From: Escherichia coli
GTDB lineage: Bacteria > Pseudomonadota > Gammaproteobacteria > Enterobacterales > Enterobacteriaceae
DNA length: 64,000 nucleotides
Direction: 5' to 3' (one strand)
NCBI RefSeq assembly: GCF_003334405.1
Contig: NZ_QOWM01000001.1
Part shown: piece after piece, positions 27,501-30,500 of the stretch
Layout of the letters: each line of letters opens with the position of its first letter
How positions within the stretch are numbered: the first letter of the stretch is position 1
Made by a program: the position numbers

Positions 27501-30500
27501 TTCATGAGGAAGTGTTAGCCCCATATCTTCACGGGCGACGGGGCCCGTCACAGTTTGTAGATAATCTTTCATGATTATACCTCCATTTTCTTCATTGTTT
27601 TCGAGGTTCTGTATTCCGGAATAGTGGTAACAATTGCACCGACCAGTGCAAACAGTGTTCCGATGATCGTGACCAGATAAACGCTATTGCCCAGCGATGG
27701 AATTAATACGTCAATCAATACTGATCCCAGTAACTGGCCCGCCGTTGAAGCAACCCCCAGCATCAGTAACCCCAGACCTCTGACCAAAATGGCCATTAAA
27801 CCGATAGACATTAGTCCAAGCGGGCCGCCAAGATACATCCACCAGACATCTGGTAATTGAACAGTGACGTGCCCTAATGCGACACGAATAGCTAGCGCTG
27901 TGCCTAAAACACAAAATCCAACGATGAAATTCTAGGTGATTGAAACCAGCATGGATCCCGTAGCTTCAGCTACTTTTGCATTTCCAGCGGGCTGCCATCC
28001 TGCAAGCAAACCAGCTAAGAACGGAAGAATGGCAAGTAAGATGAAAGAGGTAGAATGCCACTGAGGTGACACAACAAAAATCGTAGCAATAACCGCAAAT
28101 AATGCACCGATGATGCGATAAGGGGTAAAGTATTTTTTCTCGTCGACACCGATACCAAAGCGATCGCAAAGTAAACCAGACAGCAATAGCGCGGAGATCA
28201 GTGCGGTTTGAAACGTTGCGACCCCGAGTGCGCTGGCTGATGCGCCTTCAGAAAATACCACCATCGCTCCACAGAGACCGGCAAACCAGTTCCAGAGAGG
28301 AACTTTTCGGTTTTTAATCAGAGAAGGAATTGCCGCAAATTGTTGCCGGGTTTCTTTTCGCGCCATAATAATAAAAAACATCACGACTAAACCACTGGCA
28401 AAGGAGATAACTGCGCATGCATTACCATCCTGTAACCAGTGACCTAATTGACCATTCACCGCTGATTGCATAGGGGAGAGCATACCCGCAAGAATCGTGG
28501 CAAGCATCCATAAGGGAGTTGAGTACTTATTCTTTTTCATACATCAATCCTTCTATTATAGTAAATGGAGTAACTGGAGTTACCCCATTATTATTATTAT
28601 CTTGCAATATGAGTCAGTATATTTACCCACAACGCGGTATAGAACGGCCAGGACATAAACTGCTGTGTACCCCAGTGCGGTGAACAGTCACTCATAAAGC
28701 AGGCTATTTTCCCGTTGTGATAGTTACCAAAGACCAGTAATGGAGCGTTGTTTATTGTTAATACCACCTCAGCATTTTCTTTAGCGATCGCCCGGTTATA
28801 ACCTAGGAAAAAAGGATATTCAGAGAACCCTTTAATAACTGGATGTTCAGGTTGTGATGGCTGTGCAATAACACCCTCTGGTTTTTCGACACGATCGTCA
28901 CCATCTAACATCGTAACCGGGAGCACATCAGCCAGAACTGTATTTTTATAATTGGCTTTTGCTTCAATTCCCATGAATGAGAGATAGCCGCCAATCATCA
29001 ATAACCCACCACCGTTATTCACATATTCTTTAATCAGTTCGAGAGCGTTTGGTTTTATGCGAAGCTGATAAAAAGTATCATTTTGTAGCAGGAAAGTATT
29101 ACTACCAATATCACTAATAACGATGGCATCATATTGTTCTAACTGTGCCACATCTTCAGGGAAGGCAATTTGTACCGTATGTGCTGGCATATAGGTGACA
29201 TCTACCTGACTATTTTTCAGACACTGGAGTAACCAGGTCGCACCTTCTTCATATTTACTTGAGGTAAAACTGTCATATCCTTTTGAATGAATCATATGAA
29301 TATGCCAGGATTCCCCAATAAAGAGCACTTTTAGTGATTTTTTGGTGTTATTCATTCTCTGTCCCTTCTTAATGCGTAAAAATAGTTTGCTGATAATGTA
29401 TACTCTGAATTCGATGTATCACAGATTCATGTTCAGGCATGTCGGAAGCATTGCTTGTCTCCACCGCTAGGGATGCAAAGGCGCTGGCATAACACAGTGC
29501 TGATTCCAGTGATTTTCCTTTCGCAAGTCCTGATGCCAGAGAGCCGTTAAACGCATCCCCGGCTCCTGCCGTATTTTTAACGACCGCTGGAAACGCTGGC
29601 GAATGAATGAATTTTTTGCCATCAAATGCGAGCGAGCCCTTGCTACCGAGCGTGATAACCGTGTTTTTTACCCCTTTATTGTGGATAGCTTCTGCAGCTC
29701 GTTTAGCTGATTCAAGATCGTGTACGTCTATGCCGGACAGTAAACCAGCTTCTGTTTCATTGGGGGTGATATAATCAACATCCTGAATAAGTTCGTTGAC
29801 GATATCATTATAGGGTGCCGGGTTAATAATGACCGGGATACTGTTTTTTTGCGCCAATGTGATCGCTTGTTGCAGAGCGGTATAATTTGTTTCGAGCTGC
29901 AGAAGTATGACATCAGAATTAATAATCGCTTCTTTCTGAATAGTTATTTCATCGGACGACATTGTCATGTTGGCACTGGGATAGATCGCAATAACATTAT
30001 CGCCAGTACCTTCATTAACAAGGATCGTGGCAGTTCCGGTTTGCGTTTCTTTCGTTTGATAAATTATACTTTTATAAATCTTAGACGAATTCATAAAGTT
30101 GATCGCATAATCACTAAAGTGATCTGTACCTACTTTTGTTATGAAATAAACATCAGTATCGGCAAAGCTTGCTGCCAGCGCCTGGTTACAGCCTTTTCCC
30201 CCCGGTGAAAATATAAAATTACTTGCCAGAAGCGATTCTCCGATAGTGGGAAGCCTCGGCAAATAACTGATGATATCAACATTAAACGAACCAATAACGC
30301 ATACTTGACTTTTCATAGTTGAATGGCCTTTTTTTATTCCCTGGGCTGTATCATAATTTTCAAGCGCATAAGCGATTTCATTTTTCGCAATAGTATCAAG
30401 CGAGTCTAGGACGATAAAAGCACCGCCATGACATCGAGTCAGATAGCCAAGCCTGGCAAGTTCATTAAGATCTGAACGAATAGTTTCTTTCGTTACATTG

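What the first reader, a model, noticed from the sequence alone, without database searches (positions are those of the whole stretch)
27932..27934. In-frame amber codon splits a 321-codon transporter gene
The frame is continuous from 28540 to 27575 apart from one TAG (plus-strand cta at 27932-27934), with hydrophobic transporter-like sequence on both sides. This is a point nonsense lesion rather than an indel, consistent with recent inactivation of the island's uptake system, or a base-calling error.
Basis: seen in the sequence. Interest (0 to 1): 0.45.

Follow-up and report, generated by a model that had tools for sequence, protein, structure and literature searches.

The report
Inherited amber stop in transporter gene
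A single-base change (TGG to TAG) has knocked out a membrane-transporter gene in a small sugar-metabolism gene cluster of this E. coli strain; the same broken allele occurs in about 600 other complete E. coli genomes and is already flagged as a pseudogene, so it is real but ordinary.

Summary
On the minus strand, 28540..27575 is one 321-codon frame broken only by TAG at 27934..27932 (codon 203). The gene is a two-domain DMT/YdcZ (PF04657 x2) transporter, the E. coli orthologue of Salmonella STM3549 in the rikA(STM3547)-STM3548-STM3549-STM3550 cluster. Intact E. coli alleles carry TGG (Trp) here. Trp203 is invariant in all 17 full-length homologues aligned, from Enterobacteriaceae to Bifidobacterium and Lactobacillaceae. 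The lesion is therefore a G-to-A transition (plus-strand C-to-T at 27933). It is not a base-calling error: the TAG 55-mer is in 611 of about 2037 complete E. coli genomes that carry the locus, and the window's exact 5-kb haplotype is in at least 12 other genomes. PGAP already labels the gene 'pseudogene, internal stop'. It is not a natural gene boundary, because the stop lies 35 residues inside the second YdcZ repeat and removes helices 7-10. No canonical in-frame restart exists before Met235. Other lineages have broken the same cluster differently (rikA Q81* in 228 genomes, frameshifts, an IS insertion). The best reading is an old, single-origin, lineage-inherited null allele in a decaying, IS-flanked island remnant. 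'Uptake' is unproven because the substrate is unknown. Ordinary; low interest.

The parts
27575..28540 (-). DMT/YdcZ two-domain transporter gene, the orthologue of Salmonella STM3549. It has 321 codons and is a pseudogene because of one internal amber codon.
   Evidence: Translation. Two PF04657 domains. 92% identity to the Salmonella protein and 93% to the Citrobacter protein. PGAP annotates it 'DMT family transporter, pseudogene, internal stop' in genomes identical here.
27932..27934 (-). Amber codon TAG at codon 203. The ancestral codon is TGG (Trp203), and the change is plus-strand C-to-T at 27933.
   Evidence: Direct comparison with intact alleles L002 and L003. Trp is invariant in 17 full-length homologues. 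Codon indexing.
27932..28540 (-). Truncated 202-codon ORF: YdcZ repeat 1 plus the first helix of repeat 2. This is what the amber allele can still encode.
   Evidence: the ORF listing. The 202-aa product forms its own 685-member protein cluster, P0114. Hydropathy places the stop at the start of the 7th hydrophobic segment.
27575..27838 (-). Residual downstream in-frame ORF of 87 aa, starting at Met235. It is the first canonical in-frame start after the stop and covers only part of repeat 2.
   Evidence: the ORF listing. Sequence reading shows no ATG, GTG or TTG in frame between codons 204 and 234.
26538..27572 (-). Phosphotriesterase-related (PF02126) gene, the STM3550 orthologue. It is intact and lies immediately downstream of the transporter gene: TAA, then 2 nt, then ATG.
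   Evidence: NCBIfam hits below cut-off to phosphotriesterase-related protein and phospho-furanose lactonase. Annotation. Synteny.
28597..29355 (-). GATase1-like (PF07090) gene, the STM3548 orthologue. It is intact in the window.
   Evidence: Annotation. Pfam on the orthologues. Translation check.
29369..30583 (-). HTH_DeoR-PfkB kinase gene, the orthologue of Salmonella RikA/STM3547. It is intact in the window.
   Evidence: NCBIfam ribokinase at E=3e-83, below the curated cut-off. Pfam on the orthologues. PMC13432705. One RefSeq genome names it rikA.
26206..26498 (+). 3' fragment of a gamma-glutamyltransferase (ggt) gene. It is a relic of the donor's chromosomal flank, cut off by the ISL3 element, and is not part of the operon.
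   Evidence: Annotation. The window aligns with Salmonella L018 from upstream of rikA through PTE and about 285 bp into the convergent ggt gene.
24507..26126 (+). ISL3-family transposase pseudogene (internal stop) bounding the cluster on one side.
   Evidence: Annotation in identical genomes. The window ORFs are split at 24511..25254 and 25215..25886.
30779..31117 (-). IS66-family transposase remnant bounding the cluster on the other side.
   Evidence: Annotation.

Best explanation
The gene at 28540..27575 (minus strand) is the E. coli orthologue of Salmonella STM3549. It encodes a fused two-domain (5+5 helix) DMT/YdcZ membrane transporter in the four-gene rikA-GATase-DMT-PTE cluster. In the window's lineage a G-to-A transition changed the invariant Trp203 codon TGG to the amber codon TAG. 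Shown: translation must stop after residue 202, giving a protein with repeat 1 and only the first helix of repeat 2. Helices 7-10 and about 119 residues, including many family-invariant positions, are lost. Inferred: this product cannot form the antiparallel two-domain transporter, so the allele is null. The 357-nt untranslated tail may also lower expression of the downstream PTE gene by nonsense polarity. The allele arose once, because it is always linked to a synonymous A at 28064. It has been inherited and recombined across a large fraction of E. coli, and it is one of several independent ways in which this IS-flanked island remnant is being inactivated.
For: The amber codon and the continuous frame are. 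Intact alleles carry TGG. Trp203 is invariant in 17 full-length homologues across three phyla-level groups, and all close homologues are 315-335 aa. There are two PF04657 domains, and the stop lies 35 residues into the second, at the start of hydrophobic segment 7. The TAG 55-mer is in 611 complete genomes, while the locus is in 2037 of 5426. The window's exact 5-kb haplotype is in at least 12 other genomes from pig, human, sewage and cattle. PGAP annotates 'internal stop' pseudogenes. The 202-aa product cluster has 685 members. All 7 aligned TAG haplotypes (the window plus 6 genomes) have A at 28064, and all 7 TGG alleles have C. Secondary lesions in TAG genomes are a GATase frameshift plus a PfkB 4-bp deletion shared by APEC O2-211 and FY10, and an IS3 insertion in the GATase gene of GN04592. 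An independent rikA Q81* allele is in 228 genomes. Cluster orthology and the lack of any known function come and from PMC13432705.
Against: Loss of function is inferred, not measured. The three neighbouring genes are still intact in the window, and the transporter gene has no second lesion, so decay is shallow. Low-level natural read-through of UAG (here followed by A) cannot be excluded. Single-domain DUF606 proteins exist and work as dimers (PMC3962082), so residual activity of the N-terminal domain is conceivable in principle. Only the window, not the whole genome, could be checked for suppressor tRNAs. Some frameshifts in PacBio-era assemblies (NCTC122, 2013C-4991) may be assembly errors rather than real secondary decay.
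Confidence: 0.9

Rival explanations
1. The TAG is a base-calling or assembly error, and the strain really has TGG.
For: A single-base substitution is the kind of change an error could make, and no reads are available for the window.
Against: The identical 55-mer carrying T at 27933 occurs in 611 independent complete genomes. The window's entire 5-kb haplotype is identical in at least 12 other assemblies from different labs and hosts. The allele is in complete linkage with a second SNP at 28064 in the 14 sampled haplotypes.
Confidence: 0.01
2. The stop marks a natural split: two separate genes whose products assemble into a heterodimeric DUF606 transporter, as in the naturally split members of the family.
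For: The DUF606/YdcZ family does contain homodimeric, heterodimeric (two-gene) and fused forms (Lolkema et al. 2008, as summarised in PMC3962082).
Against: The stop lies 35 residues inside the second domain (169-303) and not in the inter-domain linker. No ATG, GTG or TTG is in frame before Met235, so the largest downstream product is 87 aa, with less than a full domain. Every orthologue from Salmonella to Lactobacillaceae is fused and has Trp at this position. Intact E. coli alleles differ only by TGG.
Confidence: 0.02
3. The amber allele is leaky or suppressed (near-cognate read-through at UAG-A, or a suppressor tRNA elsewhere in the genome), so enough full-length transporter is made and the allele is tolerated or maintained.
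For: The allele is common (611 genomes). In the window and several other TAG genomes the gene has no second lesion and its three neighbours are intact. From general knowledge, UAG followed by A is not the strongest terminator context in E. coli.
Against: The window holds only tRNA-Asn (four copies) and tRNA-Ser(CGA), with no suppressor. Other TAG genomes have accumulated frameshifts, deletions or an IS in neighbouring genes, and FY10 has a further 1-bp deletion within this gene. That pattern is as expected for a dead cluster. Basal read-through in wild-type E. coli is typically well below 1% (general knowledge), and whether Trp203 tolerates substitution is unknown given that it is invariant.
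Confidence: 0.05
4. The inactivation is adaptive rather than neutral. Loss of the transporter or cluster was selected in some lineages, for example because it imports a harmful compound or is costly, and this explains repeated independent knock-outs.
For: At least three independent kinds of lesion hit the cluster in different lineages: DMT W203* in 611 genomes, rikA Q81* in 228 genomes, and frameshifts or IS insertions. The null alleles reach high frequency.
Against: The same pattern is expected from neutral decay of a horizontally acquired, IS-flanked remnant. Each major null allele looks single-origin rather than recurrent at the same site. About 1200 genomes, roughly 59% of carriers, carry neither major null allele; how many of those keep all four genes intact was not determined. 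No phenotype data exist.
Confidence: 0.12

Closest known systems
Salmonella enterica STM3549 (DMT family transporter) in the rikA (STM3547)-STM3548-STM3549-STM3550 locus
   Same: The Salmonella protein P0005 is 92% identical in amino-acid sequence. The gene order HTH_DeoR-PfkB, GATase1_like, DMT_YdcZ, PTE is the same, and a convergent ggt gene follows PTE. The alignment is 75.8% nucleotide identity over window 26215-30678. The locus is described in PMC13432705, which also notes its presence in Escherichia.
   Different: The window's copy is a pseudogene (W203*). It lies in an IS-bounded island remnant at the CP4-44 site next to cobU rather than beside a full-length ggt, and only the last ~290 bp of ggt came along. 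The function of STM3549 itself is unknown.
DUF606 / DMT_YdcZ family (PF04657), two-domain fused members. From memory, and not checked here, this is KEGG K09936 'bacterial/archaeal transporter family-2'.
   Same: There are two PF04657 repeats, about ten hydrophobic segments, and weak internal repeat similarity. The fused architecture matches the one described for the family (PMC3962082).
   Different: No member of this subfamily has a known substrate. No solved structure is detectable by sequence, and no NCBIfam model matches. The window's allele is truncated within repeat 2.
Lineage-specific nonsense pseudogenes in E. coli accessory islands, as flagged by NCBI PGAP ('internal stop')
   Same: A single in-frame stop relative to intact orthologues, inherited clonally, flanked by IS remnants, with neighbouring genes decaying in other strains.
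   Different: Nothing essential. The only notable point is the high frequency, about 30% of carriers.

Membership tests
DMT_YdcZ / DUF606 fused two-domain transporter | Two tandem PF04657 domains in one polypeptide | tested here: met
   hmmscan of the repaired protein gives residues 10-154 (E=3.7e-30) and 169-303 (E=1.3e-15). All homologues carry PF04657.
DMT_YdcZ / DUF606 fused two-domain transporter | 5+5 transmembrane helices with internal repeat | tested here: inconclusive
   A Kyte-Doolittle scan finds about 9-10 hydrophobic segments, and a local self-alignment of the two halves scores 89. No dedicated topology predictor or structure was run.
DMT_YdcZ / DUF606 fused two-domain transporter | Transport activity and direction | not testable with these tools
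   No member of this subfamily has been characterised (PMC13432705). There is no PDB relative.
Orthologue of Salmonella STM3549 (rikA cluster) | High sequence identity to the Salmonella protein | tested here: met
   92% identity over 100% of the query to P0005, Salmonella enterica.
Orthologue of Salmonella STM3549 (rikA cluster) | Conserved gene order rikA-GATase1_like-DMT-PTE | tested here: met
   The order is the same in Salmonella L018 and Klebsiella L017. The DNA is colinear with the window. The literature describes the locus.
Nonsense pseudogene | In-frame stop where intact conspecific alleles and orthologues have a conserved sense codon | tested here: met
   TAG versus TGG in L002 and L003. 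Trp is invariant in 17 homologues.
Nonsense pseudogene | The stop is real and heritable, not an error | tested here: met
   611 genomes carry the TAG 55-mer. The identical 5-kb haplotype is in at least 12 genomes.
Nonsense pseudogene | The stop is not decoded (no suppressor or recoding) | tested here: inconclusive
   There is no suppressor tRNA among the 5 tRNAs of the window. The rest of the genome and actual read-through could not be tested.
Nonsense pseudogene | Loss of protein function | not testable with these tools
   Inferred from the loss of helices 7-10 and of many invariant residues.
Naturally split (two-gene) DUF606 heterodimer | Gene boundary falls between the two domains | tested here: not met
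   The stop is at residue 203, 35 residues inside domain 2 (169-303).
Naturally split (two-gene) DUF606 heterodimer | Downstream gene with its own start codon encoding a whole domain | tested here: not met
   The first canonical in-frame start is Met235, giving an 87-aa ORF.

The most novel reading that the evidence does not exclude
The cluster is being knocked out repeatedly and to high frequency: DMT W203* in about 30% of carriers, rikA Q81* in about 11%, plus frameshifts and IS hits. The novel reading is that this happens because its loss is advantageous in non-B2 E. coli, which would make the W203* allele a selected loss-of-function rather than neutral decay. It would also offer a natural genetic handle on the unknown substrate of the rikA-STM3550 pathway.
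Probability: 0.1. Interest if true: 0.4.

Novelty: already known. Interest (0 to 1): 0.1.

Why it matters
It matters little on its own. It is a textbook nonsense pseudogene, already flagged by RefSeq annotation in hundreds of genomes. There is modest practical value. Anyone studying the recently described rikA (STM3547) locus in E. coli should know three things. About 30% of E. coli carriers have a dead transporter gene, another ~11% have a dead kinase gene, and the alleles sampled with all four genes intact (Ecol_276, SK1144, 729_021014) form a separate haplotype group. These natural null alleles could serve as ready-made controls once a substrate is proposed.

Tried and rejected
(1) NCBIfam scan of the repaired transporter found no family, so naming rests on Pfam. 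(2) A PDB sequence search found no meaningful relative (best E=0.34, unrelated aminotransferase), so no structural mapping of Trp203 was attempted. (3) I first assumed the whole window was colinear with strain 720632. Base-by-base comparison showed this holds only from about 24166 onward. Strain 19SZHZ713Rt is the better match, so annotation upstream of 24166 does not apply to the window. (4) The second 55-mer query was off by one base, so it seeded on both alleles. I used it as a count of all carriers (2037) with identity bands (1429 exact, 609 with 1-2 mismatches), which agrees with the 611. (5) The ggt fragment was considered as a fifth operon member and rejected. It is the convergent chromosomal neighbour in Salmonella and was carried along as flank. 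(6) The natural-split reading was rejected on the domain boundary and the lack of a start codon. (7) A pyrrolysine-type or suppressor reading was considered: there is no such tRNA in the window, and E. coli lacks Pyl machinery (general knowledge). (8) Phylogroup or ST assignment of TAG versus TGG strains was not possible with these tools. (9) dN/dS was only eyeballed within E. coli for this gene (5 nonsynonymous plus 1 nonsense versus about 6 synonymous sites). That is too few sites to test for relaxed selection.

Full report
**1. Observation**

The minus strand from 28540 to 27575 translates as a single 321-codon frame plus the terminal TAA. The only internal stop is at codon 203, TAG, which is plus-strand CTA at 27932-27934. 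A mechanical ORF listing splits the frame into a 202-aa ORF (27932..28540) and an 87-aa residual ORF (27575..27838). Both sides are hydrophobic. When codon 203 is repaired, Pfam finds two DMT_YdcZ (PF04657) domains, at residues 10-154 (E=3.7e-30) and 169-303 (E=1.3e-15). The repaired protein matches full-length database proteins at E about 1e-199, so the frame is a real gene and not a chance open frame.

**2. Ancestral codon**

The window is E. coli. The 1301-bp region around the gene is found in 2125 of 5426 complete E. coli genomes, mostly at 99% identity or more. In genomes identical to the window here, NCBI's PGAP annotates 'DMT family transporter, pseudogene, internal stop'. In others the gene is an intact 321-aa CDS. 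Direct comparison shows that the intact alleles carry CCA on the plus strand, that is TGG (Trp), where the window has CTA, that is TAG. Gene length is 966 nt in both. The lesion is therefore a single transition, G-to-A on the coding strand and C-to-T at window 27933.

In an alignment of 17 full-length homologues, Trp203 sits in the invariant motif GSM(L/M)VSITWNFI(V/I)GF and never varies. These homologues come from Escherichia, Citrobacter, Salmonella, Klebsiella, Pectobacterium, Proteus, Anaerobiospirillum, Bifidobacterium and several Lactobacillaceae, down to 63% identity. All of them are 314-339 aa long.

**3. Not an error, and not strain-private**

- A 55-mer centred on the variant needs the T at 27933 to seed megablast. 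It matches 611 complete genomes.
- A one-base-shifted 55-mer from an intact allele seeds on both alleles. It finds the locus in 2037 genomes, 1429 exact and 609 with 1-2 mismatches.
- About 30% of E. coli genomes that carry the locus therefore have this same amber codon.
- The window's entire 5-kb haplotype, including SNPs that looked private in my first sample, is 100% identical in at least 12 other complete genomes from pigs, humans, slaughterhouse, sewage and cattle.
- The 202-aa truncated product forms its own 685-member cluster in the protein collection (P0114).

A base-calling error is excluded for practical purposes.

**4. Population structure of the cluster**

I aligned the four-gene segment (26538-30583) from the window and 13 genomes. 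Three haplotype classes appear.

- (a) All four genes intact: Ecol_276, SK1144 and 729_021014.
- (b) Transporter intact but the kinase gene carries Q81* (CAG to TAG, window position 30343): Santai, O121 WL1277, 74-2 and 2017.09.02CC. A 55-mer for this allele matches 228 genomes.
- (c) Transporter W203*: the window, 720632, BR1220, 2013C-4991, APEC O2-211, FY10 and NCTC122, plus GN04592 from annotation.

All sampled TAG alleles carry a linked synonymous A at 28064 (Pro159 CCT versus CCG), and all TGG alleles carry C. This argues for a single origin. The TAG alleles nevertheless sit on mosaic backgrounds. APEC O2-211 and FY10 share flanking sites with class (b), and 2013C-4991 shares its upstream half with class (a). 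The allele is therefore old enough to have recombined.

Several TAG genomes have further damage:

- A shared 1-bp deletion in the GATase gene and a shared 4-bp deletion in the kinase gene in APEC O2-211 and FY10.
- An IS3 insertion in the GATase gene in GN04592.
- An extra 1-bp deletion in the transporter gene itself in FY10.

Homopolymer indels in NCTC122 and 2013C-4991 may be long-read artefacts, and I do not lean on them. 'Recent inactivation' thus needs qualifying. The gene has only one lesion in the window, but the allele is an old, widely inherited polymorphism.

**5. What the gene and its cluster are**

The neighbours on the same strand are as follows.

- A 404-aa HTH_DeoR-PfkB kinase at 29369-30583. 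Its best NCBIfam hit is ribokinase at E=3e-83, below the curated cut-off.
- A 252-aa GATase1-like protein at 28597-29355.
- The transporter gene.
- A 344-aa phosphotriesterase-related protein at 26538-27572.

The same four genes in the same order occur in Salmonella enterica (L018) and Klebsiella (L017). In Lactobacillaceae the GATase1_like-DMT_YdcZ pair persists with different partners.

The Salmonella locus lies between the gnt genes and ggt-ugp, which identifies it as STM3547-STM3550. A 2026 paper shows that STM3547 (RikA) is a PfkB kinase with ribose-kinase activity. [quoted passage not shown]

The window aligns with the Salmonella locus at 75.8% nucleotide identity from 26215 to 30678. 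That stretch runs about 285 bp into Salmonella's convergent ggt gene. The 'gamma-glutamyltransferase fragment' at 26206-26498 is therefore a piece of the donor's chromosomal flank cut off by the ISL3 element, and not an operon member.

In the window the module is bounded by an ISL3 transposase pseudogene (24507-26126) and an IS66 remnant (30779-31117). It lies between tmaR/yeeX and cobU, the site occupied by the CP4-44 prophage in K-12 (K-12 map from general knowledge). Whether the transporter imports or exports is unknown. Pfam's label is 'putative inner membrane exporter', whereas the catabolic-looking neighbours suggest import.

**6. Consequence of the stop (mechanism)**

Shown: termination at codon 203 leaves repeat 1 plus one helix of repeat 2. 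The stop sits at the start of the seventh hydrophobic segment, 35 residues into the second PF04657 domain. About 119 residues are lost, and they include many invariant positions such as WxMYLGGPLGL and ASTAGQLxGS. There is no ATG, GTG or TTG in frame between codons 204 and 234, so the best possible restart product is 87 aa.

Inferred: fused DUF606 proteins descend from heterodimeric pairs of fixed, opposite orientation (Lolkema et al. 2008, as summarised in PMC3962082). The N-terminal domain alone would lack its antiparallel partner, so the allele should be null.

The transporter's normal stop (TAA at 27575-27577) is separated by 2 nt from the ATG of the PTE gene, and a GGAGG lies just upstream. 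In the amber allele 357 nt of untranslated mRNA precede that gene. This could reduce its expression through Rho-dependent polarity, but that is inference only.

**7. Rivals**

- *Sequencing error* is rejected (section 3).
- *Natural split gene* is rejected, because the boundary is wrong, there is no start codon, and all orthologues are fused.
- *Leaky or suppressed amber* is unlikely. The window's five tRNAs are four Asn and one Ser(CGA), and secondary decay in some TAG genomes fits a dead gene. Read-through was not measurable here, however.
- *Adaptive rather than neutral loss* remains possible, because there are several independent knock-outs at appreciable frequency. The data are equally what neutral decay of an IS-flanked acquired remnant would give.

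**8. Comparison with known things, and verdict**

The gene meets the tested criteria for a fused DMT_YdcZ/DUF606 transporter and for orthology to Salmonella STM3549. The lesion meets the tested criteria for a nonsense pseudogene and fails those for a natural two-gene DUF606 pair. RefSeq already annotates the pseudogene in hundreds of genomes. Novelty is 'already known', and interest is low.

The additional facts worth keeping are the allele frequencies: W203* in 611 genomes and rikA Q81* in 228, out of about 2037 carriers. They matter to anyone using E. coli to study the rikA locus.

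Noticed in passing
window 30343 (codon 81 of the PfkB/rikA gene, 29369-30583, minus strand): The window has the intact CAG (Gln81). A different E. coli haplotype (Santai, O121 WL1277, 74-2, 2017.09.02CC) has TAG here, and its 55-mer matches 228 complete genomes. This is a second, independent high-frequency null allele of the same cluster, never combined with W203* in my sample.
   Followed up: partly
window 26206-26498 (+): The annotated 'gamma-glutamyltransferase' fragment is the 3' end of a ggt gene that lies convergent to the PTE gene in Salmonella. It was carried into E. coli together with the cluster and truncated by ISL3, so it records the donor's chromosomal context.
   Followed up: yes
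L002 (Ecol_276) 6377-7298, compared with window 30779-32600: In Ecol_276 the same ISL3-ggt'-PTE-DMT-GATase-rikA-IS66' module is followed by yaiO, not by the cob genes. The module therefore seems to sit at a different chromosomal site, or a rearrangement has occurred, in the all-intact haplotype group.
   Followed up: no
window 27296, 29977, 30323: Three substitutions set the window's haplotype apart from the other 13 sampled. Two are nonsynonymous (PTE Val93Ile and PfkB Gly203Ser). They are real, being shared by at least 12 identical genomes. This is compatible with relaxed constraint but far too few sites to test.
   Followed up: partly
window 24507-26126 (+): The ISL3-family transposase is split by an internal stop into ORFs 24511..25254 and 25215..25886. 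The same pseudogene is present in every E. coli genome sampled, so the element has been immobile since before the haplotypes diverged.
   Followed up: no
window 23898-24166, compared with L021 16955-17962: The window lacks about 0.75 kb that strain 19SZHZ713Rt has just upstream of the ISL3 element, in the region of two zinc-ribbon protein genes. Upstream of 24166 the window also differs completely from strain 720632, which carries a much larger IS600/IS66-laden island there.
   Followed up: no
window 36064-36139, 38473-38548, 40297-40372, 54676-54751, 55743-55832: There are four tRNA-Asn(GTT) genes and one tRNA-Ser(CGA). These are the asn tRNA loci that serve as island integration sites in E. 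coli. None is a suppressor.
   Followed up: no
L019 7172-10110 (Lentilactobacillus hilgardii): In Lactobacillaceae the GATase1_like-DMT_YdcZ gene pair is conserved, but it is joined to a LacI regulator and a CBAH (choloylglycine-hydrolase family) gene instead of the PfkB and PTE genes. The GATase-like protein and the transporter therefore appear to be the functional core of the cluster.
   Followed up: no
L016/L017 (Klebsiella) 10162-14848: In Klebsiella the cluster lies next to relaxase, NikA-like, DUF932 and hok genes, that is, on a mobilisable element. This is consistent with horizontal spread of the module among Enterobacterales.
   Followed up: no
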